Positions 3,351-50,476 of a stretch of DNA of 64,000 nucleotides are shown in pieces. Origin of the DNA: a candidate division WOR-3 bacterium (lineage in GTDB: Bacteria > Hydrothermota > UBA3073 > NMUJ01); NCBI GenBank assembly GCA_021158725.1, contig JAGGUB010000044.1:3722-67721 (forward strand). The letters are read 5' to 3'. The position numbers and the translations under genes are program-made. Position 1 is the first letter of the stretch; each line of letters opens with the position of its first letter. The notes below the pieces were generated by a model. It saw only the letters and a list, made by a program, of their open reading frames with translations. It made no database searches and had not been told where the DNA came from.

Positions 3351-3376
3351 CCTACCTCCTTTTTGGTTCCTCTGTT

Positions 3377-3403
3377 ATTATAACCAAATTTTTAATTTGG
3401 CAA
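3377..3403 (-). promoter_or_regulatory. Possible internal sigma70-like promoter (TTGCCA-N15-TATAAT) overlapping an AT-rich hairpin
   Basis: The minus strand reads TTGCCA (3403-3398), a 15-nt spacer, then TATAAT (3382-3377), followed by a 26-nt leader with AAGGAGGT before ATG 3350. The palindrome CCAAATT-TTT-AATTTGG (3384-3400) overlaps it. The spacer is suboptimal. Confidence 0.25.
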
Positions 3404-3411
3404 CCCATATC

Positions 3412-4920: not shown

Positions 4921-4926
4921 ATCCCC

Positions 4927-5553: not shown

Positions 5554-5562
5554 TGTACCCCC

Positions 5563-6477: not shown

Positions 6478-6487
6478 CTTGCTCCCC

Positions 6488-8356: not shown

Positions 8357-8365
8357 GATACCCCC

Positions 8366-27650: not shown

Positions 27651-27658
27651 AGTACCTC

Positions 27659-36552: not shown

Positions 36553-36589
36553 GTCACCTCCTTATTTTAAACCCAATCTTCAACAAGTG

Positions 36590-38494
36590 TTAAAATCTTG
36601 CCCTCTCCAAAACTATCTCCTGTTCCGCTAATTGTTGCAGTTTGTCAAATCTATGCTTAATTTCGGGGTATACCTCAACCGGTATGAGTGGATCTTTCAC
36701 ACATGAATAGCTGGTTACAAAGATTGTATCACCAACAACCTCGTATTTTACGTAACCCTCAAGTTGGTCACTATCCAGCCGCATATCATCGGGTAGATGT
36801 TTGACTCTATACCCTTCGGGTAGTTTAATTATCGTGTTACTTTCTGTCTGCATCACTGCATGCATGAACAATGGGTAACGGCGTTCCTCGAGTGCAAATG
36901 GGTTGCCACCAAGTTGTAACCCACTCCTGCTGCCGAGCTTAAACCTATACTCATCACCATATTTTATACCGAATTCACTCATGTGATAGTACAATGTGAA
37001 CCACACATTTTCGTCAAAGTTATCCAGTTCCATCATCGAGAAGCTATCAAGTACCGCGTTTGGACCTAACCCTGCCACCATCTGTTGAAACAGCTGACGC
37101 CTAAACTCAACCGGCATCTTCTTTAACATATTACGGAATATCCAATCGTAAAATCCTTTCGCACTGAAGTGAAGCCTACCTGTCACGAAGCATGATGTAT
37201 CTATCTCCATTTCGAGGGTCACCTTCAACGCATGTTTGTCAGGTTTTGAGTACGGTATCGTACGTAATGGCTCACCATCTTCATCACACACCAGCATCTG
37301 CTTACCTTCTTCATAAGCTAAGAGGTACTCTGTGGTATTCTCCACAGTAGGGTCAAGGAATTCGTATCTGCCATCCCTTTTAATGGCGACTACTGCGTGG
37401 TTGAACTCATCTACTGCAATATCTTGGTCAATGTGCATCGTTGGGTTACACAGCACTATATAGGCATCGACACCTATCTCACGTAACATAGTAACTAACA
37501 ACGCCGCCTTGTCACGACATACTCCATATTTGCGGTTAAACGTAACCGTGGCAGGTGCAGGTTCGTAACCACCCTTCTTACCGGTTAGCTTAGTCTCCAC
37601 ATACCGTATGTTATTACTTACGAACATAAACAGTGCACGTATCTTCGCATCCAAACTCTCTAACGTATCCGTAATTTCATGTATTTTCGCCATTAAGCTG
37701 CTATCCACCACAAAACTTTTACTCGCCAGCTTATAGTACCAGCTGGACCATACCTCAAATGATGGTACCGTGGTGACCAGCAACTTCAACGCTATCTCTG
37801 GTATCGGTGGCATAAGGGGTTCGCTTACAATCTTAGGTATATCCTCCTTACGAAACACATAGGTTACCCTATTCTGCTTTACAAGGCTATCAATTTCAAG
37901 TTTACCGTTTTTAACCTTCCACCTGATCGGCATATCTATTGGTAGGTCGATGATCACCACTTTCTCGTGGATGGGTTCGTCCTCCTCGAATACACAGAGC
38001 ATGTCGAAATTCGAATCCATTGGCGGATTGTATACGTTCTCTTCGACAATATACTCGATAGCATCACCGGTTTCAAGTGCTGGATATATGATTTTCACCA
38101 CATATACGTTGGGTAAGAAGAATTTCGACCCCTCCCATGCTGGCATCGGAAACTCTTTAATGTTTTCTTTCGGTACCTTCACTATACGGCCGTCGGCTTT
38201 TATCACTCTTGCAAGTTTAACCTGTAGCTTGCTATAGGTTTCATAATAATGGAAGACAGGTTCGGCAAACTTACTTTTACCTGTAACGGTGAATATTTTA
38301 ATCAATCTATGCTGATAAGATCGATATTTGCCATCACGTTCAACATGATATTTGATCGTATCGAATACCACAACAGCATTGGCATCACTATACTCTTCGG
38401 TAGTGATCGTCTTCAATAATGGTAAGTAATTTGGCAACCTCGTAGCACACCCCATTATGATAAAACCACCAACTATCAGCATCACCCGATACAT
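36590..38494 (-). CDS. DUF3857-like N-domain + transglutaminase-like cysteine protease core lipoprotein
   Basis: 634 aa, lipobox IIMGC. Core YGVCRDKAALLVTMLREIGVDAYIV ... FNHAVVAI ... FLDPT gives a Cys-His-Asp triad in canonical order. Confidence 0.7.
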   Translation of the reverse strand: MYRVMLIVGGFIIMGCATRLPNYLPLLKTITTEEYSDANAVVVFDTIKYHVERDGKYRSYQHRLIKIFTVTGKSKFAEPVFHYYETYSKLQVKLARVIKADGRIVKVPKENIKEFPMPAWEGSKFFLPNVYVVKIIYPALETGDAIEYIVEENVYNPPMDSNFDMLCVFEEDEPIHEKVVIIDLPIDMPIRWKVKNGKLEIDSLVKQNRVTYVFRKEDIPKIVSEPLMPPIPEIALKLLVTTVPSFEVWSSWYYKLASKSFVVDSSLMAKIHEITDTLESLDAKIRALFMFVSNNIRYVETKLTGKKGGYEPAPATVTFNRKYGVCRDKAALLVTMLREIGVDAYIVLCNPTMHIDQDIAVDEFNHAVVAIKRDGRYEFLDPTVENTTEYLLAYEEGKQMLVCDEDGEPLRTIPYSKPDKHALKVTLEMEIDTSCFVTGRLHFSAKGFYDWIFRNMLKKMPVEFRRQLFQQMVAGLGPNAVLDSFSMMELDNFDENVWFTLYYHMSEFGIKYGDEYRFKLGSRSGLQLGGNPFALEERRYPLFMHAVMQTESNTIIKLPEGYRVKHLPDDMRLDSDQLEGYVKYEVVGDTIFVTSYSCVKDPLIPVEVYPEIKHRFDKLQQLAEQEIVLERARF

Positions 38495-38586: not shown

Positions 38587-38616
38587 TTGACGTTATTTAT
38601 TTTTGTGCATTTTAAT
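38587..38616 (+). promoter_or_regulatory. Sigma70-type promoter for the prepilin-like gene
   Basis: TTGACG (38587-38592), 18-nt spacer, TTTAAT (38611-38616). The ATG at 38629 is only 12 nt past the -10, so the leader would be very short. The track's TTG start at 38587 is the -35 hexamer itself. Confidence 0.4.
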
Positions 38617-38628
38617 TTCATAGACCAA

Positions 38629-39150
38629 ATGTGGCCACTCCGTAGCAGAGAAGGGTTTACATTAGTGGAGTTGCTTATGGTTGTCCTCGCGTTAGGTATA
38701 TTTGCAGCTGTGCTTATGCCACGTTACTTTGCACTACACAAGCAAGCGTTACGGGCTTCTTTTGATGCCACTGTAAGTAACATCCGTAGCGGTGTAGAAG
38801 CATACCACTATGCATGCCTTGCGGGTAAATTCGATAAGTACGATCCAAACAACGTAATATATTGCCCAACAAACCCTTTGATCTCATATGATCCTTATTA
38901 TGTACACAACGTAGAGAGTGGTAACCCTTTCTATCAGCCGAACCCATGGCCGTCAGTGCTCGATTACAGTCAAGCAGGTGCTGAAGCAACCTACCAGTAT
39001 CCGTTCTTTTGGGTTATACTCGAAAAGCCCGTAACAGATGGTTGGACCAAACGTAGTGATATGCTTGCCGATACAATCTGGTACTACGGACCTCGTAAGA
39101 TTGACAGTTTTGCCTACATACGTGTAACCGGTAAAATTTTCGTACCATGA
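38629..39150 (+). CDS. Prepilin-type N-terminal cleavage/methylation domain protein (pseudopilin/pilin-like)
   Basis: MWPLRSREG|FTLVELLMVVLALGIFAAVLMP is the classic G-F-T-L-x-E class III signal. 173 aa from ATG 38629. Confidence 0.75.
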   Translation: MWPLRSREGFTLVELLMVVLALGIFAAVLMPRYFALHKQALRASFDATVSNIRSGVEAYHYACLAGKFDKYDPNNVIYCPTNPLISYDPYYVHNVESGNPFYQPNPWPSVLDYSQAGAEATYQYPFFWVILEKPVTDGWTKRSDMLADTIWYYGPRKIDSFAYIRVTGKIFVP

Positions 39151-40419: not shown

Positions 40420-41244
40420 TCATTCAGCTCCTGGATAGGCCTCACGAAATAGGGTAAGTGTTGTACCATCATACCCCATGATATTGTGGTCTTCGTCAAA
40501 ATATATCACTAATTTGCCAACCTCTGACAATTCCCCATATGTACGTACTATAATTGTATGTGATAAACTATCTTCGAGCGGCTCATGTAAGCCACGCCCT
40601 TCGTAGCCACCTACAAGTATATCGATACCTCTTACCTGTTCGACCAGCTTCACATCGTTATCAAACCCAAGTGATGACAGTACAATGAGCACATCGACAC
40701 TATCACGTATGTGTGCCACTACACGGCTTACACTCTCTATGGGGTTGTACACTTTAATCTTGGTTGCATACTCCCAAGCTAATGCGGGTGCTAAGTACTG
40801 GGTTACCACACCTATCACACCTATAGTGATACCATCTTTTTTCAAAATCACATATGGTTTGTTGTAACCTTCGATATTCGCTGATATAAATGTAGGGCTA
40901 TCCGGCAAATATGGTACCCATGGTAGGTCATATACTCCAATATTTACAACATCGTAGTTAAGCTCACCGAACATCTTCAACATCATATGTGGTGGTTCAC
41001 CATACCTACCGGGTGCACTGAAGTTACCTGCATCTAAAAGCAACAACGGGTAGCCCTCCCTGTATGCCTTCTGACGTTCTACCGATAGCAGGTATTTCAG
41101 TGACGGTAAGCCACCAAGTTCAGGTGGAAAGTTTGGATTTATCCATGTAGCAGGACGTGGATATGTAACCTCCGCTATATCATTGGTATATAGGATGACA
41201 AGCTTCTCAGTAACAAAAATCAACCCTACTATCACTATTGTCAT
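40420..41244 (-). CDS. Membrane-anchored 5'-nucleotidase/metallophosphatase-fold protein with all metal-ligand motifs degenerate (pseudoenzyme)
   Basis: 274 aa, N-terminal TM MTIVIVGLIFV. Scaffold motifs are retained but the ligands are lost: ILYTNDIAEV (for D-x-H), LLLDAGNF (for G-D), VNIGVYD (for G-N-H-E), VLSSLG (for S-H-x-G), LVGGYEG (for G-G-H-x-H). Confidence 0.65.
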   Translation of the reverse strand: MTIVIVGLIFVTEKLVILYTNDIAEVTYPRPATWINPNFPPELGGLPSLKYLLSVERQKAYREGYPLLLLDAGNFSAPGRYGEPPHMMLKMFGELNYDVVNIGVYDLPWVPYLPDSPTFISANIEGYNKPYVILKKDGITIGVIGVVTQYLAPALAWEYATKIKVYNPIESVSRVVAHIRDSVDVLIVLSSLGFDNDVKLVEQVRGIDILVGGYEGRGLHEPLEDSLSHTIIVRTYGELSEVGKLVIYFDEDHNIMGYDGTTLTLFREAYPGAE

Positions 41245-41798
41245 CTCACTGTAGGAAGCGTTTTGGTCGACACTCTCAGAAGCTGGTCAAAGTACTGTTC
41301 GAACATTGTTGCAACCTCACGTGATACGATCATCACCGTAGCTTCATTATTCCTCTGCAGTGCGTAATACGTCCAGTTATGTGAACCCACAAACACTATC
41401 TTACCATCGATTATGACAACCTTACAATGTGTGGTGACATCGGGCGGATCGAAATACACTTCGGTTATACCGAGTTCATGAAGATGTTTGGCCACCTGCA
41501 CATTTTTACGTGTAACACTGGGGTTCCAATCTGACTGATCGAGTATGAGCTTCACCTCCACACCCTGTCTATTTATATACGCAAGCGCATCATACAGCGA
41601 ATCATTCATCCCACGCGGATATTGTGGGTAATAACCTGCACTAAACATTATCACATGTACAACACTATCTGCATTGTATACCTCCTCGATCAACCGTCTC
41701 ACGTAGTCGCGATTGAATGTAACTTCAACCTCATCTGCAGGTAAGCCAACCGCCACACTCGCTACTATAACAATAAATGCTACAAATATGCGTTTCAT
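41241..41798 (-). CDS. Secreted single-HKD phospholipase-D-superfamily protein (Nuc-like endonuclease candidate)
   Basis: 185 aa, signal MKRIFVAFIVIVASVAVG. HCKVVIIDGKIVFVGSHN is an exact H-x-K-x4-D-x6-G-S-x-N motif. The size and single-motif layout match Nuc-type nucleases rather than two-domain PLDs. Confidence 0.7.
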   Translation of the reverse strand: MKRIFVAFIVIVASVAVGLPADEVEVTFNRDYVRRLIEEVYNADSVVHVIMFSAGYYPQYPRGMNDSLYDALAYINRQGVEVKLILDQSDWNPSVTRKNVQVAKHLHELGITEVYFDPPDVTTHCKVVIIDGKIVFVGSHNWTYYALQRNNEATVMIVSREVATMFEQYFDQLLRVSTKTLPTVR

Positions 41799-42889
41799 GG
41801 TAACTCCTTCTTGATCGTAAAGATAACACTGAACATACTTTCGTCGATTTTGTCAAACCCCTCCACATCCACAAGGTATGCACTGTATTTGCGACACCAG
41901 AAGCTTATCCCAACGTCGATCTCACAAAATGCGCCCCTATAGCCGATACCTGCAGTGTAGATCCCTTTTGATAGACGTTCATCCTTAGCCGCTGATAGCC
42001 ATGCGAAGCCGGCTCGTAACAGAAATGAAGGCATAAGCTCGTGCTCCACACCCATGTGGTATTCCCATTCACGATGTTTGCCTTGATGGGTTAACACCTC
42101 GGCTACAAAATATGCAGGTAAAATATTTGCTGGCCGATATCCGATACCTACTCCATACGTGAATTGAGGATAATCGAACAGTGTATCTTTAAGTGTGGAT
42201 ATCTTCCATATACCGCCGATGGTCCACCTAAAAGAAGGTTTGATACATATACCAAACGTAAAGTTTATACCCTGAAGTTTACCACTTGTCGATGTATCCC
42301 ACGGTTCACTACCTTCATATGAGGGACGCCACATCTTTGCATGTTGCCAATCCCCTTTTAAATAACTACCACCTATCCCCACGTATAAGGTGGGCCATAC
42401 TCGTACACCCAACATTGCTGAATACGATATAACCATACCGGTTGAGGATTCGATCTGCCACCCCCTTATGAGATAGTAGTCATCGTACATCGGGAGCTTA
42501 AACTCATAGTCGAACACATATTTAGGGGATACTTTAAAGTCGAACGACACACCGTGTTTATAGAGATTTATACCTAATGGCATAGGAACGGTATGTAACT
42601 CGTCACGTATCGCACGTGTAGCTTCACCTACATAGTCTTCGAACTCATTGTATACCTTAACCTTACGTTCCTCGGTAATCTGATGAAGTTGTAGGTTGAT
42701 GACAACCGCAGAGATCGAATCATAACACGCGGGGTTGTCTGCATCCGTCACCACTATAGATATGTAGCCTAACCCAACATTCTTGCCATCGAACATAGAT
42801 AATGGATAGCCACCAGTTGCTATCTCATGTAATGTATATCCATACAGAGGGATTACTGCAAAACTGAAGATGTACACAAATTTACTCAT
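41795..42889 (-). CDS. Hypothetical outer-membrane beta-barrel-like protein
   Basis: I moved the start to ATG 42889 (MSKFVYIFSFAVIPLYG) with GGAGG 5 nt upstream, fused to the preceding TAG. Alternating aromatic/Gly beta-strand pattern (YVGIGGSYLKG, FTFGICIKP, YGVGIGYRP, YTAGIGYRG). Confidence 0.55.
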   Translation of the reverse strand: MSKFVYIFSFAVIPLYGYTLHEIATGGYPLSMFDGKNVGLGYISIVVTDADNPACYDSISAVVINLQLHQITEERKVKVYNEFEDYVGEATRAIRDELHTVPMPLGINLYKHGVSFDFKVSPKYVFDYEFKLPMYDDYYLIRGWQIESSTGMVISYSAMLGVRVWPTLYVGIGGSYLKGDWQHAKMWRPSYEGSEPWDTSTSGKLQGINFTFGICIKPSFRWTIGGIWKISTLKDTLFDYPQFTYGVGIGYRPANILPAYFVAEVLTHQGKHREWEYHMGVEHELMPSFLLRAGFAWLSAAKDERLSKGIYTAGIGYRGAFCEIDVGISFWCRKYSAYLVDVEGFDKIDESMFSVIFTIKKELP

Positions 42890-42897
42890 ATAGCCTC

Positions 42898-45195
42898 CTA
42901 CCACCATATTATCAAAAGTAAGTTACCACCAAACTCACGCCTGGTATCGATAAACTCGTAAATTGGTATACCATCCTCTGAATGTGCACCCAACATCCCA
43001 GTATGCGGGAACTCGCTTAATTTATACCTAAATTTTAACCTAAATAATAAGTTATGTGACAGCCTATCTGATAGCACTAAGTAATATTTCCAGCCCCTAC
43101 CCTCAAGAAAGTCTATACCCGTGTCTTCGAATATCCACTGCGATAACCCCTGTGTCTGCCATATCGCATATCCACCCAGTATCGACATATGTGGTGATAA
43201 ATTATACCGATAGGTGAGCGCGAGAAACCCTCCCGTTATTGTGTTGGCTGTCTCATATCTTGGTAACGAAGGAAACGATACCCTCGCATAACGTAATTCA
43301 GCACGTAAGTTGTTGTAGTTGCTTAACCTATATTCGATTGTGAGCGATGTCTCCCATAGATGCGATATTGTAGTGGTAGCCAGCCGTTTGTGTGATTTAG
43401 CCTGCAGCTTTTGCCTCAGATATATACGTAACGGGAAAGCTGGCCGATACTGTAATGTCACCTGTGTACGCCAGTTAGGTAACCCATACGCAAGGTCCTT
43501 CCATACATCTATGTAAAAACGTGATATTATCAACCTATGTGATGGTTGGTATCTGAACTCAAGATATATACCCTCCTCTGCCCTCGGTACAGGATATTCG
43601 GAAATATAGACATAAAGTGGATCTATCAACCGATACGAACGTTGCCATATGCCTTCACCAAACCGCCTACGTTCGGCAAACCCACGTGAGTATGGGTTAT
43701 CATAATCCACATCGTAGTGCCGTAAAACCAAGATCCCATATAGTGTTTCATACTGTAGGTGTAGCTTCATAATGTATGCATGACCGGCATGCTGTTGCTT
43801 TGCGTAGTCAAATTCTAAGCTCATATTGTTCACCACCGTAGAGAGATGTGTACCTACGAAGCTACGATGCTGGCCACGACTTGATAATAGGTAGTTAGGG
43901 TCATCGATCACCTCCTTATCCCAGGGTATATCCAGGTATTTGGGATTCGGGTTGAATGGCCTCGAGTAAAGTAAATCGAGTAGACTAACCCCTACGTATG
44001 TACCTACAGGTAGATTGTATAGACCGCCCATATCTACGGTGAGGTTAACTCCGATCATTCGTTCCTTCACGTTATGACGGAATGCGGGTAGCACCGGGTA
44101 GATATGTATCAGGTGGTTCACCGAACTGTCAGGGTTAAGTATTGCATTCCTTGGTGCATACGACCACAGTATGGTAGGATGTATGCGGTTGAATGTGAGT
44201 TCAGCTGCCACCCCTTGTAGATAGAAATGTTCGTAATACGTGAGGTCACCGAATAACCCCTCCGGACGCGTGTGTAATCTTGCACGTATCTCGTCACTGT
44301 TATCAAGTAATATACCTTGCCCCCATGTTACCCTGTACGTACCGATGTACATTTTACGTAATGGGCCTATCGATCGTAGCTCGATATAACCTTTGTTGAA
44401 TTTCCTAATCCCTAGATATACATGTGGGGTTATACCCATCCGTAACCGCCAGTCCCATCCCCGATATGTACCCTCACGTAGGTAATCTTCCTTCTCACGA
44501 TATAGCCGTGATATGAGGTGCACGATCTCATCTTTGGTCCATCCAGCTGCTATTAGGTCTTCCTCCCTGTATTTAAGATAGGTAGGCCTACCATAAAGGT
44601 CACCCAATATATCGCCCCTTATGTAATAGATAGTACGCCAGCTGATCTTTAGGTAACCTTCTGTCCCATGTAGGGGTTTGTCTTCAAAGGTTACAAAGTT
44701 TCTGAGATTCCTATATCCCCAGTACGATAACCCCGGTATATCGCGGAGTGCACGTTGATACGATATCTTACCATATAGCTGACGATATCTTACAATGCTG
44801 GCAGCATCCACCAAGCTGACACCATCAAACATTGCAATATCCTTAACAGCTGCACGATTTATGTTGAGCGGATGTCCAAGATACCAGAGCCACTCTTCTA
44901 CAGCACCTGCACGTGGCCCTTCCTCACGGGTGAGCCGCTCCTGCAGGTATTCATAATAATCGCTGGTTTCACGTCTATAAGGTGGTGGGGTCAACTTCAC
45001 CAGGTAACGTATCTTGTTTACTGACTCAATAGGTAATATCTTCGTAAGCTCGTAAAAGCTACGAAAGTACCCATGTTTAAGCCTGTATAGGTATATTGCT
45101 TGGATTTCGGGCTCACTCAGAGGTAGTTGCTTAAGCTTATATAAACTATCGGTGTTTAGATCGATAACAATCAGTATGGATAGCAGGATTACCAT
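42898..45195 (-). CDS. Two ComEA-like helix-hairpin-helix domains fused to a ~550-aa beta-barrel-like C-terminal region
   Basis: HhH unit 1 is DLNTDSLYKLKQLPLSEPEIQAIYLYRLKHGYFRSFYELTKILPIESVNKI. Unit 2 is LNINRAAVKDIAMFDGVSLVDAASIVRYRQLYGKISYQRALRDIPGLS. The remainder is amphipathic beta-strand-rich and ends LLLIIWW (aromatic terminus). The start is ATG 45195 (overlaps the upstream stop) or TTG 45213. Confidence 0.6.
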   Translation of the reverse strand: MVILLSILIVIDLNTDSLYKLKQLPLSEPEIQAIYLYRLKHGYFRSFYELTKILPIESVNKIRYLVKLTPPPYRRETSDYYEYLQERLTREEGPRAGAVEEWLWYLGHPLNINRAAVKDIAMFDGVSLVDAASIVRYRQLYGKISYQRALRDIPGLSYWGYRNLRNFVTFEDKPLHGTEGYLKISWRTIYYIRGDILGDLYGRPTYLKYREEDLIAAGWTKDEIVHLISRLYREKEDYLREGTYRGWDWRLRMGITPHVYLGIRKFNKGYIELRSIGPLRKMYIGTYRVTWGQGILLDNSDEIRARLHTRPEGLFGDLTYYEHFYLQGVAAELTFNRIHPTILWSYAPRNAILNPDSSVNHLIHIYPVLPAFRHNVKERMIGVNLTVDMGGLYNLPVGTYVGVSLLDLLYSRPFNPNPKYLDIPWDKEVIDDPNYLLSSRGQHRSFVGTHLSTVVNNMSLEFDYAKQQHAGHAYIMKLHLQYETLYGILVLRHYDVDYDNPYSRGFAERRRFGEGIWQRSYRLIDPLYVYISEYPVPRAEEGIYLEFRYQPSHRLIISRFYIDVWKDLAYGLPNWRTQVTLQYRPAFPLRIYLRQKLQAKSHKRLATTTISHLWETSLTIEYRLSNYNNLRAELRYARVSFPSLPRYETANTITGGFLALTYRYNLSPHMSILGGYAIWQTQGLSQWIFEDTGIDFLEGRGWKYYLVLSDRLSHNLLFRLKFRYKLSEFPHTGMLGAHSEDGIPIYEFIDTRREFGGNLLLIIWW

Positions 45196-46001
45196 CGTAT
45201 GCCGACCGTCCAAGTTATCGGCAGATAAGCATGGTATTTAAATGCGCAATCTAATGTAAGTTGCTTTAATTTGAAGCTCACCCCCCACGTTAGGACAACG
45301 GGTGGTGTCTCCATACCCGTACGAACCGTTAGGTTAGGATGTATCTGGAATTCACCACCTATCCGCATACGGTTGACACCTACATGGGTACGCTCCAACT
45401 CCATCATGGTGACAGCACCTACAAACGGTACGTATGACATACCCACTGTTAAGCTACGTGGTATATAATGACGTGAAAGCTTACCTATACTGGGGTTGTT
45501 CAACGGATGTATTACTGCACCCAAACACCACCTATCATATACGTAACCGATTAACCCCATATCTACACCAATGACATGTGAGCTACCAAACCTCTGCATA
45601 GATAGCGAATAGTAAGAAGTTGATACCCCAAAGTAAAGGTCACCCGCTATCGGTAATCCAATACCAGCAACCACTATACGTTCTTCGTACAGTGATACAT
45701 TATCTCCTACGTTTAACAAATGTACACCTACAGCGACCGTATATTGGTGGACCGATCGTGCCAATATGAAGTTGGCTCTATTCACGATACTGAATAGGTG
45801 TTCATAATTCGCTTCTATACGGGTACCACTTATGAGTGACAGCCCTGCTGGGTTATAAAATAAGGTTGATGGCGCATCCCCTATTGCAACAAATGCATCA
45901 CCACAACCAGCTACACGTGCACTTAAGGAGTACTGGTCAAACATCCCAAATAGCATGCCAGGCAGTATTATCCCTATTGAGATCAAGCTTTGGTGCTTCA
46001 T
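45189..46001 (-). CDS. PorV/PorQ-family (FadL-like) outer-membrane beta-barrel protein, paralog 3
   Basis: 270 aa. SARVAGCGDAFVAIGDAPSTLFYNPAGLS motif. ATGA overlap with the upstream CTD-protein gene. Confidence 0.65.
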   Translation of the reverse strand: MKHQSLISIGIILPGMLFGMFDQYSLSARVAGCGDAFVAIGDAPSTLFYNPAGLSLISGTRIEANYEHLFSIVNRANFILARSVHQYTVAVGVHLLNVGDNVSLYEERIVVAGIGLPIAGDLYFGVSTSYYSLSMQRFGSSHVIGVDMGLIGYVYDRWCLGAVIHPLNNPSIGKLSRHYIPRSLTVGMSYVPFVGAVTMMELERTHVGVNRMRIGGEFQIHPNLTVRTGMETPPVVLTWGVSFKLKQLTLDCAFKYHAYLPITWTVGIRW

Positions 46002-47926
46002 TTCAGTGGCGTACCAACAACTATCGGTTTACAGAATTTTTGGTATTCGCCATGGATCTCAACCTCCACCTCAAGTATATATGTACCGATGGGTACGGAT
46101 TCCTCTAACTCGTTCTTACCATCCCAATCCGTGTATATAGGGGATTTGTATTTACGTTCGACTACCGTTCGGATGAGGTCACCACGTAGATTGAATATCC
46201 TTGCAGTATAAACAGCATCCGATGGTCCATTGATTTTGATAAACAGTATCTCACCCAACTCAGGTGCAAATGGATTGGGAGATATATCAATCGACACATT
46301 GGGTTGTGGTTCACCTATGTATATTTTCTGTATATCTTCTGGATAGCGTAACTTCAACTGATAACCTGAATTGTAAGGGGGGTCACGATCGTATTGTGAG
46401 CCTATCCCCACAATTGTGATGTAATCACCGATCTCCAAGCTACGATAGATTTCGGAGGTATCAATCCCCGTACCTTCGTCTACCCGTACATTGATGATGA
46501 TGTTGCCATTCCATACCTCGAAATTGCCCGCCCCCAAACCCGGTGTAAACTTCGTATGTAGTTTAGCTTGCGGTATACAAAGTAGTTTACCTTCAAATTG
46601 TTCAGTTATTGGATACGATAGCTTTAACGTCTCAGGTATCACCGTAGCGTTTGTATCAGTACGTAATAAAATGAAACATTCATCTCCCACATATGTGAGC
46701 TCGGTCATCCCATTGTATTCCTGAACTTTACCCCTTACGATGATCTCGTCACCCATCTGTGGATTATAGTCGAACCCATAAATGGCCACCCCTGTGGTGG
46801 TATCTTGGATGAAGAATTGGCCACCCCCCAATGGGGGTGAGGTTATAACACCTCTCACAGTTACGAGTTGACCCAATAACTGTGAATCATAACCAGAAGT
46901 GTCAGGTTGCTGTACTTCACTGATAGGTATTATAGGTAACGAATCGATTACATTGATCACGGGTATGGTTGGCACAGTAACTAGCATCCCTCCAGGTGGT
47001 GCAGTCTTCACTTCGAATTGGTGCTCACCAACCTCATATGGTTCCATATCGTGAAGATATACACGGAGTGAATCCATCACGGTTAGGCTGTCAAGGTATA
47101 GGTGTGATGGGGTGACCTCACCCAACACAGGTTGCATCGGGTAGATTGTATATTCCAAAGAATGCCATGTCCAACCTTCAGGTATTGTTATTTCGAGCTT
47201 CTCAATAGTGTCAGAGGTTACGATGTCAAACCTTAACGTTAATCGCTCGTTTTTGAACACCACGTGTGGGTTGAGTCTCACCATACCGGGGCCCACCACG
47301 GCAGGGGTGAAATCAGCAAGCGATCTGGGTTCAATCTGATAACTCTCATAGTACTGTGTAAGTGGTGAAACAATGCTTATATAGCCGTCAGGGATCGTAG
47401 CACCTACCATCGAATCGTTGTACCTGCTTATCCATACCGGTAACTGGTTACCTTCGTTATCTTCAACATGGTATGTGGTGTTACCCTGAAACGTACCGGA
47501 TTCTATGAATCTCACGCTATCAATACGTACGAGCATACCCTCATAGTCTTCACCATTACTGTGTATCGCAGGTATGGTGAGTTTGTGAGGTGATGGCAGG
47601 CTATGATTACGTGCTATTATGTTTATCGTAAATAGTTCGTTGCTTGCCCATAGTTCGGTGAGATTGGCGAACTCCTTTACCAACCCCGTGATTACAATGC
47701 TATCACCTACGTGTATGTCGGGTGTATTTCTACCACCCCTGTAGACGTATATACCGGAACGTAATTCACCTGACATATCTTGTAAGTAGAAATTGTTACC
47801 TGTAAGGCCCGTCACTATGCCTGAGGTTGTAACTGTATCACCTACGTAGGGGGAAGTATCACCCGCACCCTGTAGCTCGCTAATCGAGTGATAAGGATAA
47901 AGAATGAAGGCTATTAATATCAACAT
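45998..47926 (-). CDS. Surface protein with two OB-fold-like modules (as at the N-terminus of ExeM/NucH-type extracellular nucleases) and a T9SS-type CTD, with no catalytic domain
   Basis: 642 aa. Module A (aa ~14-205) begins ISELQGAGDTSPYVGDTVTTSGIVTG..NFYLQD...GIYVY...VGDSIVITGLVKEFANLTEL. Module B (aa ~333-535) begins ISEVQQ...LLGQLVTVRGVITS...FFIQDTTTGVAIYGF...MGDEIIVRGKVQEYNGMTEL. CTD is aa ~545-642 (SPNPF...ARIFNLRGDLIRTV...WDGKNE...IGTYILEV). Confidence 0.65.
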   Translation of the reverse strand: MLILIAFILYPYHSISELQGAGDTSPYVGDTVTTSGIVTGLTGNNFYLQDMSGELRSGIYVYRGGRNTPDIHVGDSIVITGLVKEFANLTELWASNELFTINIIARNHSLPSPHKLTIPAIHSNGEDYEGMLVRIDSVRFIESGTFQGNTTYHVEDNEGNQLPVWISRYNDSMVGATIPDGYISIVSPLTQYYESYQIEPRSLADFTPAVVGPGMVRLNPHVVFKNERLTLRFDIVTSDTIEKLEITIPEGWTWHSLEYTIYPMQPVLGEVTPSHLYLDSLTVMDSLRVYLHDMEPYEVGEHQFEVKTAPPGGMLVTVPTIPVINVIDSLPIIPISEVQQPDTSGYDSQLLGQLVTVRGVITSPPLGGGQFFIQDTTTGVAIYGFDYNPQMGDEIIVRGKVQEYNGMTELTYVGDECFILLRTDTNATVIPETLKLSYPITEQFEGKLLCIPQAKLHTKFTPGLGAGNFEVWNGNIIINVRVDEGTGIDTSEIYRSLEIGDYITIVGIGSQYDRDPPYNSGYQLKLRYPEDIQKIYIGEPQPNVSIDISPNPFAPELGEILFIKINGPSDAVYTARIFNLRGDLIRTVVERKYKSPIYTDWDGKNELEESVPIGTYILEVEVEIHGEYQKFCKPIVVGTPLK

Positions 47927-48327: not shown

Positions 48328-49007
48328 CAGAGGATACCACGTAGTGTTAGATGAACATCGTAGCGATAGCCCATAAATTTAGCACCTAACCAACCCCACC
48401 CTCCTGTGAATATAATCTTTACACCTTCTGTTTGTTGCTTGAACCGCTGAATAATGCCTTCGATACGGGTAACTTCACCCCATACGATGCCGGCTGCTGC
48501 ACACTCGTTCGTACTACGGCCAATAAGTGGCACCTGTTCAGTGATCATGAAATCAGGTTTTATGTTTAGATGTGACAATTTTTTACGATAAAACTCACAC
48601 GAATAAGATACACCTGGTAGTATCAACCCACCTTGATGTTTGCGATCGACCAGCAAGTCCACTGTGGTGGCTGTCCCCATATCTATTACAAGTAAAGGTG
48701 AACCCAGCATTTTGTATCCCGCTATCATATTCGCACGCCGATCGACTCCCAACCCATCATAAGCCCATTGTATGGGGGTGGGTGTCTTTTGGGTTAACCA
48801 TACGAATTTATCCCTATGGGTTGTTATATTTAGCTTGATATCACGTACGGATATGATGAACACTTTCGCTACCTTATCCAGATATTGCTCAATTATCGAT
48901 AACGCTTCATCCCATGTATCTTTACACCATGCCTTCTGTATATCTGTAGTACCTAAGCCCACCTTGATCTTGGTAGTACCTATGTCAACTGCTAGCTTCC
49001 ATGCCAT
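48303..49007 (-). CDS. coaX: Type III pantothenate kinase
   Basis: LAVDIGTTKIKVG, GVDRRANMIAGY, LVIDMGTATTVDLL, GGLILPG: the CoaX signature order. Confidence 0.8.
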   Translation of the reverse strand: MAWKLAVDIGTTKIKVGLGTTDIQKAWCKDTWDEALSIIEQYLDKVAKVFIISVRDIKLNITTHRDKFVWLTQKTPTPIQWAYDGLGVDRRANMIAGYKMLGSPLLVIDMGTATTVDLLVDRKHQGGLILPGVSYSCEFYRKKLSHLNIKPDFMITEQVPLIGRSTNECAAAGIVWGEVTRIEGIIQRFKQQTEGVKIIFTGGWGWLGAKFMGYRYDVHLTLRGILWWGEWLSS

Positions 49008-50031
49008 TAATGAACGACCTTACTAACGCGGCACGCTCTTTCTCAGCGATATGTTGTTGCAATTTTCTACCTGTACGTTTTTCAAGATGTGAATGCCTTG
49101 TAATCAGCAGCAGATTGGTAAATCTTGGCAACTCTTTTGCTGAAAATATGAGCCCCATCGAGATACCCATCCGGATACCTGAGATATAGGTCCAGGTCTC
49201 CTCTTCTGATAACAGTCGTGCGTATTTCAACAACCCCCACGATCGGGTGACTTTATCTTCTAAAATATCGGCCAGATGTGTGTTCATGACCTCACGTGCC
49301 TTGTTCTCCTGCTTGATAAGCGCATTGGCAAGATACTCAAATGGTGTGATTATCTCCTCACGGAATGCCCAAGTAAGTGCATTAGTCACCACGAATATGT
49401 AACCAGTGGTACCTGTACCCCATAGGTTATGGAATATGAACCCCTGTGGAGTAAGTGTCTCAACAGTAAAGTTGTACTGTCTCAACAATACCAGTGCCGG
49501 GAGATGCAAAGTGATCGCAACCCTCAACCCCGTACCTACCTCAAGTGGTGACGAGGTGAGGTGCCCCCATTCTTCTGAATACGTATATTCGAGGCCCAAT
49601 ATTTTCGCGATTTCGTTTGCTTTATTATATGCTTCCCTGATGTTGAGCCCATTCGCAAAACTCTGTATCACAAGGTGATCACGATCGTTCACCACTATGC
49701 TTATGTCTTCGTCAGGACTTATAGCCACGAGTTTACCTTTGGGTGAATCAATAAATGTCTTGCTGATGAGAAACCTCTCCCATAAGAATTTGCGATCCTC
49801 TGGGGTTAGCTCCTCGCCTTTGAAGATTGTGAACCCCTGCAACTTTTCATTACGTTCAATCGCATAGGCTATGATCTCACGTACCTCTTCAAGTTCGTCA
49901 TCGCTCGCCTTCAATGGGAAATTGTATCCTTTAAGGTTACGTACAAGTTTAGCCCTCGTAAAAAGTGGTATATCAGAGGAGGTATCACCCCACCACTCAG
50001 GTGCCCTTTTGGCCCTTTGCTCTAAGTTCAT
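48985..50031 (-). CDS. mcsB: Protein arginine kinase McsB (ATP:guanido phosphotransferase family)
   Basis: 348 aa. N-terminal ...W......IPLFTRAKLVRNLKGYNFP, EEWGHLTSSPLEVGTGLRV (guanido kinase active-site region), C-terminal dimerisation/pArg-binding-like helices. Confidence 0.8.
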   Translation of the reverse strand: MNLEQRAKRAPEWWGDTSSDIPLFTRAKLVRNLKGYNFPLKASDDELEEVREIIAYAIERNEKLQGFTIFKGEELTPEDRKFLWERFLISKTFIDSPKGKLVAISPDEDISIVVNDRDHLVIQSFANGLNIREAYNKANEIAKILGLEYTYSEEWGHLTSSPLEVGTGLRVAITLHLPALVLLRQYNFTVETLTPQGFIFHNLWGTGTTGYIFVVTNALTWAFREEIITPFEYLANALIKQENKAREVMNTHLADILEDKVTRSWGLLKYARLLSEEETWTYISGIRMGISMGLIFSAKELPRFTNLLLITRHSHLEKRTGRKLQQHIAEKERAALVRSFINGMEASS

Positions 50032-50476
50032 TTTCGATTTCTTTTATCTTATCACGTATCTTGGCAGCTTCCTCGTATGCCTCCTTGTCGAGCAGCTCCT
50101 GCAATTTCCTCTTTAACCTGTATAGTTGGAGATGTTTGTCAGGTTCTTCATCCCTTATCTCCGCACCTTTGGGGGGTACCTCCTTCTGCCATGGTGTACG
50201 TACTAATAAGTTCTTAATGAATTGGCCAAACGTCTCATAGCAGGTGCTACACCCGAGCTCCATATTCTGTAGAAACTCCTCGTATGTGAGCCCACAACGT
50301 GGACATACGCGTTGCCCCTGCTGTATATCATGTTTGGGGACATAGGGTTCCTCCGATATCTCCAGCTTATCACGCAGACATGTACTACATATAGGGATGA
50401 TCTCCTTATTTTCTCGGAAGACCACTATTACATATTTGAATTGGGCCTCACGTTTACCGCAAACAGCGCACTTCAT
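49997..50476 (-). CDS. mcsA: McsA-like zinc-finger / UvrB-UvrC-motif activator protein
   Basis: 159 aa. CAVCGK...CSTC and CPRCG...CSTCY zinc fingers. C-terminal LQELLDKEAYEEAAKIRDKIKEIE UVR motif. Confidence 0.8.
   Translation of the reverse strand: MKCAVCGKREAQFKYVIVVFRENKEIIPICSTCLRDKLEISEEPYVPKHDIQQGQRVCPRCGLTYEEFLQNMELGCSTCYETFGQFIKNLLVRTPWQKEVPPKGAEIRDEEPDKHLQLYRLKRKLQELLDKEAYEEAAKIRDKIKEIENELRAKGQKGT

What the first reader, a model, noticed from the sequence alone, without database searches (positions are those of the whole stretch)
42898..45213. ComEA-type DNA-binding domains fused to a predicted outer-membrane barrel
Residues ~20-75 and ~105-165 (nt about 44718-45153) each look like the (HhH)2 DNA-binding unit of ComEA. 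Signature stretches are LNTDSLYKLKQLP...IQAIYLYRLKHGYFRSFYELTKILPI and LNINRAAVKDIAMFDGVS...ASIVRYRQLYGKISYQRALRDIPGLS. The remaining ~600 aa show repeated amphipathic strands (YLEFRYQPSHRLIISRFYIDVW, TQVTLQYRPAFPLRIYLR, WETSLTIEYRLSN..LRAELRYARV, GGFLALTYRYNL, LLFRLKFRYKL) and end in an aromatic LLLIIWW. ComEA is normally a free periplasmic protein that ratchets DNA through the secretin. Tethering such domains to a dedicated barrel would be a different way to move or hold DNA at the outer membrane.
Basis: partly seen in the sequence, partly recalled or inferred. Interest (0 to 1): 0.65.

Follow-up and report, generated by a model that had tools for sequence, protein, structure and literature searches.

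The report
HhH-tipped outer-membrane barrel, DNA-scavenging operon
This gene encodes an uncharacterised outer-membrane protein, a 24-stranded barrel with two ComEA-like helix-hairpin-helix modules at its N-terminus, and it sits in a gene cassette conserved across many Bacteroidota-related phyla that looks built to capture and take up extracellular nucleic acid without a secretin or a TonB-dependent transporter.

Summary
ORF 42898-45213 (-) encodes 771 aa: a signal-like N-terminus, two HHH_3/ComEA-type modules (aa 17-75 and 114-176) joined by an acidic linker, and a C-terminal domain that two AlphaFold models (pLDDT 78.7 and 85.4) fold into 24 long amphipathic strands ending in an aromatic beta-signal. 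Foldseek matches only outer-membrane barrels, and none closely (TM <= 0.34). No Pfam or NCBIfam model covers the barrel.

The fusion defines a family found in at least 191 species genomes (WOR-3, TA06, Fibrobacterota, Gemmatimonadota, Latescibacterota, Cloacimonadota and others), with distant single-HhH relatives in Bacteroidota.

Its gene neighbourhood is strongly conserved:
- a surface protein built from nuclease accessory modules (DUF5689, OB, LTD)
- a PorV/PorQ-like barrel (68 of 69 loci)
- the HhH barrel
- a BamG-like barrel (60 of 73)
- a secreted 5'-nucleotidase (54 of 62)

In this window's subclade a Nuc/NucT-like PLD nuclease has been added and the nucleotidase has degenerated.

The best reading (confidence about 0.5) is the outer-membrane conduit of a nucleic-acid capture and uptake system. 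Caveats: the HhH hairpins have lost the GhG signature, HhH1 is usually acidic, and orientation and DNA binding are inferred, not shown. I class it as a new variant of a known kind, interest about 0.6.

The parts
42898..45213 (-). Whole ORF, 771 aa from TTG 45213. An alternative ATG at 45195 gives the 765-aa product called in public data.
   Evidence: (P0001, 100% identical, 765 aa). The ATG overlaps the upstream stop codon as ATGGTAA. The TTG start adds a charged n-region (MDGRH) and matches the 16-18 aa pre-HhH length of the close homologues. The start codon is unresolved.
45163..45213 (-). N-terminal hydrophobic signal-like segment (aa 1-17)
   Evidence: every family member starts with a hydrophobic segment. 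Distant members have classical Sec signal peptides with AXA-type sites. There is no lipobox.
44989..45165 (-). HhH module 1 (aa 17-75), ComEA-like fold with degenerate hairpins
   Evidence: NCBIfam comEA model at aa 17-62, E 6.6e-6. Family profile against ComEA 8dss E 5.5e-10. Acidic in most members (pI 4.4-6.9), with hairpins 'LP-I' and 'GMT'.
44875..44988 (-). Acidic, partly helical linker (aa 76-113), low model confidence at aa 78-101
   Evidence: pLDDT below 50 at about aa 79-100. Net charge -1 to -8 across the family. Conserved 'RLASEEGP' motif.
44686..44874 (-). HhH module 2 (aa 114-176), 8 residues from the first barrel strand
   Evidence: Pfam HHH_3 E 6.8e-11, above the gathering score. 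Basic in most members (pI 8-10.6). V132, D136 and A137 are invariant and R171 is nearly invariant. It is retained in the distant Bacteroidota homologues.
42901..44661 (-). 24-stranded outer-membrane beta-barrel (aa 185-771) with C-terminal beta-signal ...LLLIIWW
   Evidence: Two AF2 models. Foldseek hits are only OM barrels. All 24 strands are amphipathic and the lumen face is net +16 in this protein. A terminal aromatic residue is present in 18 of 18 members. No Pfam family matches.
44221..44322 (-). Conserved loop L3 (aa 298-331; family motif GQGLxMDNTD...R...RPxGLFGDL)
   Evidence: It is more conserved than the strands, and the motif GxFxVxFGQGL is retained in the Bacteroidota homologue. 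It is a candidate in-lumen constriction or partner-docking loop (inference).
43579..43713 (-). Conserved loop L7 (aa 501-545; family motif YDVxYDNPYSRxF...RF.DT.LEK.YRL.DP)
   Evidence: This motif was the pattern used to find 191 genomic relatives.
45998..47926 (-). First gene of the operon: 642-aa non-catalytic surface protein with DUF5689/OB modules and a FlgD_ig-type (T9SS-like) C-terminal domain
   Evidence: Pfam DUF5689 4.1e-14 and OB fold 1e-4. NCBIfam ExeM/NucH N-terminal region 5.5e-17. PDB EEP nuclease N-terminus 6.7e-4. Orthologous positions in other phyla carry LTD, DUF5689, OB, Big_5 and FlgD_ig.
45189..46001 (-). 270-aa PorV/PorQ-family (FadL-superfamily) barrel, the near-universal upstream partner
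   Evidence: 52 of 52 orthologues match NCBIfam PorV_fam, best 4.3e-25. The profile matches solved PorV 6h3i_F at 3.2e-8. It lies directly upstream in 68 of 69 loci.
41795..42907 (-). 370-aa BamG-like/TodX-like FadL-superfamily barrel, the downstream partner
   Evidence: 29 of 34 orthologues hit the BamG model, best 3.2e-24, far below the 250-bit cutoff. PDB 9hiv_F 2.9e-13, TodX 2.5e-9, BamG 9n2d_B 3.7e-7. It lies directly downstream in 60 of 73 loci.
41241..41798 (-). 185-aa secreted PLD-family (Nuc/NucT-like) nuclease, specific to this subclade
   Evidence: PLDc_2 7.7e-23, NucT models, HKD motif HCKVVIID. PDB Nuc 1byr and NucT 6ehi. Signal peptide present. Found in only 6 of 68 loci.
40420..41244 (-). 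274-aa truncated, motif-less remnant of the cassette's 5'-nucleotidase
   Evidence: It aligns to nucleotidase 3ivd (1.9e-12) but the metal-ligand motifs are lost and there is no 5_nucleotid_C domain. Pfam gives no hit. Elsewhere the gene is 500-590 aa with intact motifs.

Best explanation
The gene encodes the central outer-membrane component of a conserved extracellular nucleic-acid capture and uptake cassette found in Bacteroidota-related (FCB-group) bacteria.

Shown:
- The protein has a signal peptide, two divergent ComEA-type (HhH)2 modules on an acidic linker, and a 24-stranded beta-barrel with a canonical C-terminal beta-signal.
- It is translationally coupled in a six-gene operon.
- Across at least ten candidate and established phyla it is flanked by a PorV/PorQ-like barrel, a BamG-like barrel, a large non-catalytic surface protein made of DUF5689, OB and LTD modules (the accessory modules of ExeM/NucH-type extracellular nucleases), and a Sec-exported 5'-nucleotidase.
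- In this subclade a Nuc/NucT-like PLD nuclease is present and the nucleotidase has decayed to a remnant.

Inferred mechanism:
1. The surface protein is exported by the T9SS. The organism encodes PorU 5 kb away.
2. It is held at the cell surface by the FadL-family adaptor barrels, in the way PorV/PorQ hold CTD proteins and BamG holds BamH. There it captures DNA or RNA.
3. The polymer, or large fragments of it, passes through the wide 24-strand barrel. Conserved loops L3, L5, L7 and L11 probably gate the barrel.
4. The HhH modules are placed on the periplasmic side by the loop and turn pattern. HhH2 is basic and sits 8 residues from strand 1. They receive and retain the incoming strand as a tethered ComEA-like ratchet.
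5. Periplasmic nuclease and nucleotidase convert the polymer to nucleosides and phosphate for salvage. Hand-over to a competence pathway is possible but not indicated.
For: Architecture. Foldseek hits are only OM barrels, and the top hits are 24-strand ushers, 22-strand TonB-dependent transporters and 26-strand MtrB.

Family breadth: 207 representatives at 50% clustering with E <= 1e-30 and 191 species genomes. Every full-length barrel relative carries HHH_3.

Synteny in species-representative loci with enough flank: PorV/Q-like upstream 68 of 69, BamG-like downstream 60 of 73, nucleotidase 54 of 62. The first-gene domain sets are LTD, DUF5689, OB, Big_5 and FlgD_ig. DHH/DHHA1 phosphoesterases occur in some loci.

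Enzymes: the nucleotidases have intact catalytic motifs, signal peptides and no surface-sorting domain, so they are periplasmic enzymes that need a phosphorylated substrate delivered across the outer membrane. The PLD nuclease has an intact HKD motif and a signal peptide.

Adaptor-barrel precedent: PorV on SprA (PDB 6h3i, matched) and BamG on BamA holding BamH (PMC12611786).

Functional precedent: DUF5689 protein DdbD with an OM transporter and nucleases gives DNA utilisation in Bacteroides. The homologous Riemerella genes plus a separate HhH protein are essential for natural transformation (PMC12478041; PMC8459023).

Other: the organism has a T9SS, since PorU scores 462.6 bits against a cutoff of 420. 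The lumen face of the strands is net +14 across the family. All gene junctions overlap by 4-25 nt.
Against: - The HhH hairpins lack the GhG signature. HhH1 and the linker are acidic in most members, and ComEA equivalog cutoffs are missed by a wide margin. HHH_3-like folds also occur in non-DNA proteins: PsbU gave a weak hit, and the T2SSK_1st model hits 8 of 18 members.
- Neither orientation nor pore openness could be read from coordinates.
- The covariation test of barrel closure was uninformative.
- A basic wall with acidic loops is also the pattern of ordinary porins.
- No inner-membrane transporter, ComEC or DprA lies in the cassette.
- The distant Bacteroidota homologues lack the cassette.
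- No member has been studied experimentally.
Confidence: 0.5

Rival explanations
1. Export or anchoring platform. The 24-strand barrel and its two PorV/PorQ/BamG-like partners form a dedicated outer-membrane docking or secretion station for the upstream T9SS-type surface protein, a small-scale analogue of SprA-PorV or BamA-BamG-BamH. The HhH modules are structural periplasmic adaptors and do not contact DNA.
For: Both flanking barrels belong to the family that binds T9SS C-terminal domains or surface lipoproteins. The upstream protein ends in a FlgD_ig-type domain. PorU and other cargo-plus-PorV/Q pairs are in the window. The HhH hairpins are degenerate and acidic. The GspK-type T2SSK_1st model hits 8 of 18 members.
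Against: It does not explain why a periplasmic 5'-nucleotidase (54 of 62 loci), a PLD nuclease or DHH enzymes are kept in the operon. The same window has a PorV-like barrel and CTD proteins next to a TonB-dependent importer, so these partners are compatible with uptake loci. The cargo is always built from nucleic-acid-binding modules. This platform role can coexist with uptake.
Confidence: 0.17
2. Channel for a different anionic or phosphorylated substrate, such as nucleotides, polyphosphate or phosphorylated glycans. The HhH modules bind a periplasmic partner, and the DNA-related look of the neighbours is incidental to phosphate scavenging.
For: The most conserved enzymatic partner is a 5'-nucleotidase, not a nuclease. 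PLD nucleases are present in only 6 of 68 loci. The lumen face is net positive. The HhH motifs are degenerate.
Against: A 24-strand barrel is far larger than needed for mononucleotides. The first gene is consistently built from OB, DUF5689 and LTD modules typical of polymer-binding nuclease accessories. The HhH fold is retained in every member, even the distant Bacteroidota ones.
Confidence: 0.13
3. Dedicated competence (natural transformation) DNA-uptake pore. It would be the FCB-group counterpart of secretin plus ComEA, delivering intact DNA to ComEC, not to catabolism.
For: ComEA-like modules are fused to an OM pore. In Riemerella a DUF5689 protein, an OM barrel and a separate HhH protein are each essential for transformation and no type IV pilus is required (PMC8459023). 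A lone type IV pilin-like gene lies about 1.3 kb beyond the end of the operon, on the other strand.
Against: Hydrolases that would destroy incoming DNA are co-encoded. No comEC, dprA or comF lies in the cassette or within 10 kb in the loci examined. The pilin gene is not conserved next to the cassette: 0 tblastn hits in 84 loci.
Confidence: 0.1
4. Surface eDNA adhesin. The N-terminal HhH modules are exported through the barrel, autotransporter-like, and tether the cell to extracellular DNA in biofilms.
For: The linear order (signal peptide, N-terminal passenger-like domains, C-terminal barrel) is that of classical autotransporters, and strand parity alone cannot exclude this.
Against: Only about 8 residues connect HhH2 to strand 1, too few to span a pore. 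The barrel has 24 strands, not 12. HhH1 and the linker are acidic. The periplasmic enzymes in the operon would have no role.
Confidence: 0.05

Closest known systems
ComEA (periplasmic or membrane-anchored competence DNA receptor; Pfam HHH_3, TIGR00426/TIGR01259; PDB 8dss, 8dfk, 2duy)
   Same: The (HhH)2 fold is the same. The family profile matches solved ComEA at E 5.5e-10 and Pfam HHH_3 scores above the gathering cutoff. The proposed role is also the same: binding incoming DNA on the periplasmic side of an outer-membrane pore.
   Different: Here the modules are duplicated and covalently fused to a 24-strand barrel. The GhG hairpins are lost. HhH1 is acidic. Scores are far below the ComEA equivalog cutoffs. 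ComEA works with a secretin and type IV pilus, and none is associated here.
Bacteroidota DNA-utilisation / transformation loci: B. thetaiotaomicron ddbABCDEF and Riemerella RA0C_RS04915/04920 plus the HhH protein RA0C_RS02645 (PMC12478041, PMC8459023)
   Same: The locus logic is the same: a DUF5689-type surface DNA-binding protein next to an OM barrel together with secreted nucleases. In Riemerella an HhH protein is also required. The organisms belong to the same superphylum.
   Different: In those systems the barrel is a TonB-dependent transporter with CarboxypepD_reg and Plug domains, and the HhH protein is a separate soluble protein. Here the barrel has 24 strands, no Plug or TonB-receptor signature, carries the HhH modules itself, and is flanked by two FadL-family barrels. 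A DdbC-type transporter does exist elsewhere in this window (8366-11014) but in a different locus.
SprA-PorV (T9SS translocon) and BamA-BamG-BamH (Bacteroidota BAM) assemblies (PDB 6h3i; PMC12611786)
   Same: A large barrel is accompanied by FadL-superfamily adaptor barrels that hold surface-exposed proteins. The partners here are PorV/PorQ-like (52 of 52) and BamG-like (29 of 34).
   Different: The central barrel is neither SprA (36 strands) nor Omp85. The partners score far below the PorV, PorQ and BamG equivalog cutoffs, so they are paralogues. The associated enzymes point to nucleic-acid metabolism, not to secretion or OMP assembly.
Large gated OM barrels: chaperone-usher FimD (24 strands), TonB-dependent transporters (22), MtrB (26), AlgE/BcsC-type polymer exporters
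   Same: The fold class and size are similar. These are the best Foldseek matches (E 3e-9 to 2e-6). The linear order, an N-terminal soluble domain followed by a barrel, resembles TonB-dependent transporters (plug) and BcsC/PgaA (periplasmic TPR).
   Different: TM-scores are only 0.24-0.34 and sequence identity is 7-11%. There is no Usher, Plug, TonB_dep_Rec or Alginate_exp Pfam hit. There are no chaperone, pilin, cytochrome or polysaccharide-synthesis genes nearby.

Membership tests
ComEA / HHH_3 DNA-binding module | Sequence match to the (HhH)2 ComEA-type domain model | tested here: met
   Pfam HHH_3 42.6 bits against a cutoff of 27 at aa 115-175. 18 of 18 family members match. The family profile matches ComEA 8dss at 5.5e-10 for HhH1.
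ComEA / HHH_3 DNA-binding module | Equivalog-level score to the ComEA models (TIGR01259, TIGR00426) | tested here: not met
   26.1 bits against a cutoff of 152.35, and 29.2 bits against a cutoff of 53.1.
ComEA / HHH_3 DNA-binding module | Gly-hydrophobic-Gly hairpins and basic surface that contact the DNA backbone | tested here: not met
   The hairpins read 'LP-I' and 'GMT' in HhH1, and 'NVS' (GVS in the window protein) and 'GLS' in HhH2. HhH1 pI is 4.4-6.9 in most members, and only HhH2 is usually basic. Canonical multi-ComEA proteins retrieved in the same search keep GIG/GVG hairpins.
ComEA / HHH_3 DNA-binding module | Sequence-independent DNA binding | not testable with these tools
   This needs EMSA or fluorescence anisotropy with the N-terminal 180 aa, and with HhH1 and HhH2 separately.
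BAM-dependent outer-membrane beta-barrel protein | N-terminal export signal and C-terminal beta-signal ending in an aromatic residue | tested here: met
   All 18 members have a hydrophobic N-terminus, and distant members have classical Sec sites. All 18 end in W, F or Y after an alternating hydrophobic pattern.
BAM-dependent outer-membrane beta-barrel protein | Even number of antiparallel amphipathic transmembrane strands with short turns on one side and long loops on the other | tested here: met
   24 strands appear in two independent AF2 runs. Turns are 2-11 aa and loops reach 52 aa. All 24 strands are amphipathic across 48 sequences. Foldseek returns only OM barrels.
TonB-dependent transporter (including the DdbC / RA0C_RS04915 type) | Plug domain, TonB box and a 22-strand TonB_dep_Rec barrel signature | tested here: not met
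   No Plug, TonB_dep_Rec or CarboxypepD_reg hit in any of 18 members at E <= 0.1. The model has 24 strands. By contrast the window's own TonB-dependent transporter at 8366-11014 hits all of these.
Chaperone-usher pathway usher (FimD/PapC) | Usher family signature with plug, N- and C-terminal domains, and adjacent chaperone and pilin genes | tested here: not met
   Ushers are the top Foldseek hits, but TM is only 0.26-0.28 at 7-9% identity. There is no Pfam Usher hit and no chaperone or pilin gene in the operon.
Ddb-type DNA-utilisation locus (PMC12478041) | DUF5689 surface protein encoded next to an OM transporter together with secreted nucleases | tested here: met
   A DUF5689 protein lies two genes upstream (4.1e-14). 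A secreted PLD nuclease lies two genes downstream. The pattern is conserved in related loci.
Ddb-type DNA-utilisation locus (PMC12478041) | The transporter is a DdbC homologue, and the locus confers depletion of exogenous DNA | tested here: not met
   The transporter here is unrelated to DdbC-type TonB-dependent transporters. The functional half of this feature cannot be tested with these tools.
PorV/PorQ and BamG (for the two flanking barrels) | Score above the equivalog cutoffs for T9SS PorV (250), PorQ (220) or BamG (250) | tested here: not met
   The window proteins score 38.7 bits (PorV_fam, subfamily cutoff 90) and 15-19.5 bits. The best orthologue E values are 4.3e-25 and 3.2e-24. They are members of the FadL/PorV superfamily, not orthologues of PorV, PorQ or BamG.

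The most novel reading that the evidence does not exclude
The family is a self-contained outer-membrane nucleic-acid translocon that needs neither a secretin and pilus nor TonB. A wide 24-strand barrel with an electropositive wall is gated by its own acidic HhH1-linker segment or acidic loops acting as a polyanion mimic. Incoming DNA or RNA, handed over by a T9SS-anchored OB/LTD receptor held on two FadL-type adaptor barrels, displaces the gate. The basic HhH2 at the periplasmic rim then rectifies its movement. This would be a third, previously unrecognised route for polymeric nucleic acid across a diderm envelope, widespread in uncultivated FCB-group phyla.
Probability: 0.2. Interest if true: 0.85.

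Novelty: new variant of a known kind. Interest (0 to 1): 0.6.

Why it matters
How polymeric DNA crosses the outer membrane is understood mainly for secretin and type IV pilus systems with ComEA. TonB-dependent DdbC-type transporters in Bacteroidota were added only recently.

This family would add a structurally different solution in which the ComEA-like element is built into the pore, and the pore works with FadL-type adaptor barrels and a T9SS-delivered receptor. It is present in at least ten phyla that dominate sediments, hot springs, digesters and soils but are mostly uncultivated. In those settings, extracellular DNA is thought to be an important phosphorus, nitrogen and carbon pool (general background knowledge, not checked here).

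The cassette is a compact, recognisable genomic marker that could be used to map nucleic-acid scavenging, or gene uptake, in metagenomes. The protein is a tractable target for structure determination and for DNA-translocation assays in bilayers. It also extends the emerging theme that FadL-family barrels (PorV, PorQ, BamG) act as adaptors on larger barrels.

Tried and rejected
1. Covariation (mean-field DCA) on 189 family sequences (Meff about 125), to test whether strand 1 pairs with strand 24. Consecutive strands scored only 0.37 against a background of 0.17, and the beta23-beta24 control failed, so the null result for beta1-beta24 (0.07) is uninformative.
2. AlphaFold of the 270-aa partner barrel with a 52-sequence alignment taken from syntenic loci. 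The word-indexed homologue search found only two near-identical relatives.
3. Multi-HhH hits in the exhaustive search (P0109, P0119, P0158). These are unrelated ComEA-repeat proteins with canonical hairpins and no barrel.
4. Riemerella RA0C_RS02645 as a possible fused homologue. The paper describes it as a periplasmic protein with the annotated HhH domain at aa 236-301 (three HhH domains in all). No barrel is described, so I treated it as an analogue and not a homologue.
5. Anti-phage defence reading. PADLOC gives only generic PLD/DrmC similarity for the nuclease and nothing for the other five proteins.
6. Promoter and terminator scans were at or below shuffle expectation and uninformative. 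Rfam finds only tRNAs, far from the locus.
7. Literature. No paper links Fibrobacter, HhH and the outer membrane. One query failed on syntax.
8. Lumen charge as evidence for a polyanion channel. It is positive (+14), but with acidic loops (-20) this pattern is also porin-like, so it is not used as decisive evidence.
9. Usher, TonB-dependent transporter and AlgE homology. Rejected on TM <= 0.34 and the absence of family signatures.

Full report
**1. The observation**

The ORF is real: 42898..45213 on the minus strand, 771 aa from a TTG start.

HhH modules:
- Pfam finds HHH_3 at aa 115-175 (E 6.8e-11, 42.6 bits, gathering score 27).
- NCBIfam's comEA model matches aa 17-62 and its ComEA HhH-repeat model matches aa 113-162. 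Both are well below the curated cutoffs.
- A profile built from 18 full-length homologues matches solved ComEA (8dss, E 5.5e-10; 8dfk; 2duy) and the tandem HhH of EEPD1 (9yi2, 2.6e-18) through its first module.

So both N-terminal units are ComEA-type (HhH)2 modules.

C-terminal domain: the remaining ~590 aa have no Pfam or NCBIfam model in any of 18 members and no sequence match in the PDB. Two AlphaFold2 runs agree on 24 long strands between aa 185 and 770:
- 18 sequences: pLDDT 78.7, pTM 0.75
- 50 sequences: pLDDT 85.4, pTM 0.81

Foldseek against the PDB returns only outer-membrane barrels. The best are FimD ushers (24 strands), TonB-dependent transporters, MtrB, AlgE and porins. TM-scores are 0.24-0.34 and identity is 7-11%, so there is no close structural relative. 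All 24 strands alternate between a hydrophobic and a polar face across 48 sequences. All 18 aligned members end in W, F or Y after an alternating hydrophobic pattern, which is the OMP beta-signal.

**2. Anatomy and likely topology**

The connections between strands alternate between short turns (2, 2, 2, 2, 2, 4, 4, 4, 5, 5 and 11 aa) and long loops (up to 52, 45, 35, 26 and 26 aa). By the standard OMP rule (short periplasmic turns, long external loops, C-terminus periplasmic), the N-terminus of strand 1, and hence the HhH modules, lie on the periplasmic side. HhH2 is only 8 residues from strand 1. HhH1 hangs on a ~40-aa acidic linker that is modelled with low confidence.

This is an inference. 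I could not access coordinates, and a covariation test of strand 1-24 pairing was uninformative. An in-lumen plug position, as in TonB-dependent transporters or ushers, is not excluded.

The most conserved segments are loops, not strands:
- L3: GQGLxMDNTD...RPxGLFGDL
- L5
- L7: YDNPYSRxF...
- L11: GMSQWxFEDxGIDF

This suggests they form a gate, a constriction or a partner-docking surface. The polar face of the strands is net +14 (range +7 to +19) and the long loops are net -20. That is compatible with a polyanion conduit but is also porin-like.

**3. Are the HhH modules DNA binders?**

The ComEA-typical 'YRxxxGxF' core is kept, but the hairpins that contact DNA backbone are degenerate:
- HhH1: 'LP-I' (one residue shorter, no glycine) and 'GMT'
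- HhH2: 'NVS' and 'GLS'

HhH1 (pI 4.4-6.9) and the linker (net -1 to -8) are acidic in most members. HhH2 is basic in most (pI 8-10.6) and carries the invariant V132, D136 and A137 and the nearly invariant R171. The window protein is the most basic of the set. Canonical multi-ComEA proteins picked up by the same search keep GIG/GVG hairpins.

DNA binding is therefore plausible for HhH2 and doubtful for HhH1, and it has not been tested.

**4. Family and distribution**

- An exhaustive profile search found 207 representatives (50% clusters) at E <= 1e-30, about 90 of them full length.
- A scan of species-representative genomes found 191 relatives. By record title, the best 80 come from candidate division WOR-3, TA06, Edwardsbacteria, UBP2, Latescibacterota, Gemmatimonadota, Krumholzibacteriota, Fibrobacterota, Zixiibacteriota, Eisenbacteria and Cloacimonadota. 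A few MAG labels, such as Alphaproteobacteria, are probably binning artefacts.
- A barrel-only profile search showed that every full-length relative carries HHH_3.
- That search also reached ~680-700-aa Bacteroidota proteins such as one from Lewinella aquimaris. hhalign confirms them as homologues (99% probability, E 2.2e-18, 430 columns). They have only the HhH2-equivalent module.

The fusion is therefore ancient and obligate.

**5. Gene context**

In the window the six genes from 47926 down to 40420 overlap stop-to-start by 4-25 nt. They are:
1. A 642-aa protein with DUF5689 (4.1e-14), an OB fold, the N-terminal region of ExeM/NucH nucleases (5.5e-17) and a FlgD_ig-like C-terminus.
2. A 270-aa PorV/PorQ-like barrel.
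3. The HhH barrel.
4. A 370-aa FadL-like barrel.
5. A 185-aa PLD (Nuc/NucT-like) nuclease with an HKD motif and signal peptide.
6. A 274-aa UshA-like protein.

Across the 80 species-representative loci with enough flank:

| Neighbour | Loci |
|---|---|
| PorV/Q-like barrel directly upstream | 68 of 69 |
| BamG-like barrel directly downstream | 60 of 73 |
| 5'-nucleotidase homologue after that | 54 of 62 |
| PLD nuclease | 6 of 68 |

The first gene varies but is always assembled from LTD, DUF5689, OB, Big_5 and FlgD_ig modules. Some loci add DHH/DHHA1 phosphoesterases. The nucleotidases are normally 500-590 aa with intact NDxH, GD and GNHE motifs, Sec signal peptides and no sorting domain.

The truncated, motif-less form occurs in exactly the loci that gained the PLD nuclease, this window included.

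**6. The partner barrels**

- All 52 orthologues of the upstream barrel match the PorV/PorQ family (best 4.3e-25), and their profile hits solved PorV from the SprA-PorV complex (6h3i_F, 3.2e-8).
- 29 of 34 orthologues of the downstream barrel hit NCBIfam's BamG model (best 3.2e-24, far below the 250-bit cutoff). Their profile hits 9hiv_F, TodX and BamG 9n2d_B.

BamG is a FadL-family barrel that docks on BamA and anchors the surface lipoprotein BamH (PMC12611786). PorV docks on SprA and carries T9SS cargo. Both neighbours therefore belong to a class of adaptor barrels that attach to a larger barrel and hold surface proteins.

The organism has a T9SS:
- PorU is at 51128-54973 (462.6 bits, cutoff 420).
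- Two further bona fide PorV/Q paralogues lie beside putative surface proteins.
- There is a second OM locus with a CarboxypepD_reg-Plug-TonB receptor, a PorV-like barrel and Por_Secre_tail proteins.

**7. Mechanism**

Putting this together, the best-supported explanation (about 0.5) is an outer-membrane nucleic-acid capture and uptake module:
1. A T9SS-delivered, non-catalytic receptor made of nuclease accessory modules is held by the adaptor barrels next to the 24-strand pore.
2. Nucleic acid passes the pore.
3. The tethered HhH modules, chiefly HhH2, receive it.
4. Periplasmic nuclease, nucleotidase and DHH enzymes degrade it for salvage.

Shown: the architecture, family, synteny and enzyme integrity. 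Inferred: orientation, DNA binding, direction of transport and the physical complex.

The closest functional precedents are the Bacteroides ddb DNA-utilisation locus and the related Riemerella transformation genes. There a DUF5689 protein works with a TonB-dependent barrel, and in Riemerella a separate HhH protein is also essential (PMC12478041, PMC8459023). Here the barrel is of a different kind and carries the HhH element itself.

Rivals:
- a surface-protein anchoring or export platform (0.17)
- a channel for another phosphorylated substrate (0.13)
- a dedicated competence pore (0.10)
- an autotransporter-like eDNA adhesin (0.05)

**8. Start codon and signal peptide**

The ATG at 45195 overlaps the upstream stop codon (ATGGTAA), suggesting translational coupling, and it is the start used in public gene calls (765 aa). 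The TTG at 45213 adds MDGRHT, giving a charged n-region and the 16-18 aa pre-HhH length seen in close homologues. Neither start has a clear Shine-Dalgarno sequence. This is unresolved. Distant members have classical cleavable signal peptides.

**9. Verdict**

- The family is annotated only by its HhH domain and I found no published study of it.
- It is a new variant of a known kind (outer-membrane DNA-acquisition systems), with a structurally novel transporter component.
- Interest is about 0.6.

Noticed in passing
window 40420-41244 (-); compare L008:13841-15391, L074:13836-15611: The last gene of the operon is a 274-aa remnant of the cassette's 5'-nucleotidase. It has the calcineurin-like fold only, the metal-ligand motifs are lost (NDIAE, GN, GV-Y, GYEG), and there is no 5_nucleotid_C domain. 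The truncated form occurs in exactly the loci that acquired the PLD nuclease (window/L088/L005, L020, L029, L037, L039, L040). Elsewhere the enzyme is full length with intact motifs. It may be a pseudo-enzyme retained for a structural role.
   Followed up: partly
window 993-11014 (-): A second outer-membrane uptake-type locus. It has a CarboxypepD_reg-Plug-TonB-dependent receptor (8366-11014, the same domain architecture as DdbC and RA0C_RS04915), a 622-aa protein with no family hit, a bona fide PorV/PorQ-family barrel (5563-6504, 202 bits), a 502-aa protein of unknown function and a 785-aa Por_Secre_tail protein (993-3350). It looks like a PUL-like arrangement in which a T9SS-anchored protein plus a PorV-like barrel replaces the SusD-type lipoprotein.
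   Followed up: partly
window 51128-54973 (-): This 1281-aa C25-family peptidase is the T9SS sortase PorU (NF033707, 462.6 bits against a cutoff of 420) with its own Por_Secre_tail domain. This WOR-3-like organism therefore has a type IX secretion and sorting system.
   Followed up: partly
window 26700-29407 (-): Another cargo-plus-adaptor pair: a 582-aa PKD/NHL-repeat protein (27659-29407) immediately followed by a PorV/PorQ-family barrel (26700-27650, 156 bits). Pairs of a surface protein with a private PorV/Q paralogue recur at least four times in 64 kb.
   Followed up: no
window 48985-50476 (-): A McsB protein-arginine kinase (ATP-gua_Ptrans + McsB_C) with its McsA-like UVR-motif partner. 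This system is best known from Firmicutes, and here it is in a diderm FCB-group genome, directly upstream of a type III pantothenate kinase gene and close to the cassette.
   Followed up: no
window 38587-39150 (+): A lone type IV pilin/pseudopilin-like gene (prepilin N-terminal GFTLVE motif; GspG and ComGC models at 1e-7 to 1e-4) about 1.3 kb beyond the operon on the opposite strand. It is not conserved next to the cassette in other loci (0 of 84 tblastn hits).
   Followed up: partly
P0198, P0199; L092:9001-11049 (Lewinella aquimaris): Bacteroidota carry a short form of the family (~680-700 aa) with an acidic leader, a single HhH (the HhH2 equivalent) and the barrel, with a shortened L7 loop. 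It stands alone with no nucleotidase or PorV cassette. In Lewinella it lies about 1 kb from a CarboxypepD_reg TonB-dependent receptor on the opposite strand.
   Followed up: partly
P0073 (1251 aa, from the exhaustive search): One family member has a ~430-aa N-terminal extension that looks TPR-like by eye (not scanned against Pfam), in front of the two HhH modules and the barrel. This resembles the periplasmic-TPR-plus-barrel layout of polymer exporters such as BcsC and PgaA.
   Followed up: no
L002/L003:13042-14682; L087:16719-18173: In several WOR-3/TA06-type loci a DHH/DHHA1 phosphoesterase (RecJ/NrnA-like) follows the nucleotidase. In L022 a further FlgD_ig-tailed 444-aa protein follows it, and L087 has an unannotated 443-aa protein in the same position. 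The cassette therefore has lineage-specific enzymatic add-ons.
   Followed up: no
window 34843-38494 (-): Two tandem paralogues (569 and 634 aa) with DUF3857, the longer also with a transglutaminase core domain. They lie about 2 kb beyond the cassette's end, past the convergent AdoHcy hydrolase gene and the pilin-like gene. A homologue also lies near the cassette in L044.
   Followed up: no
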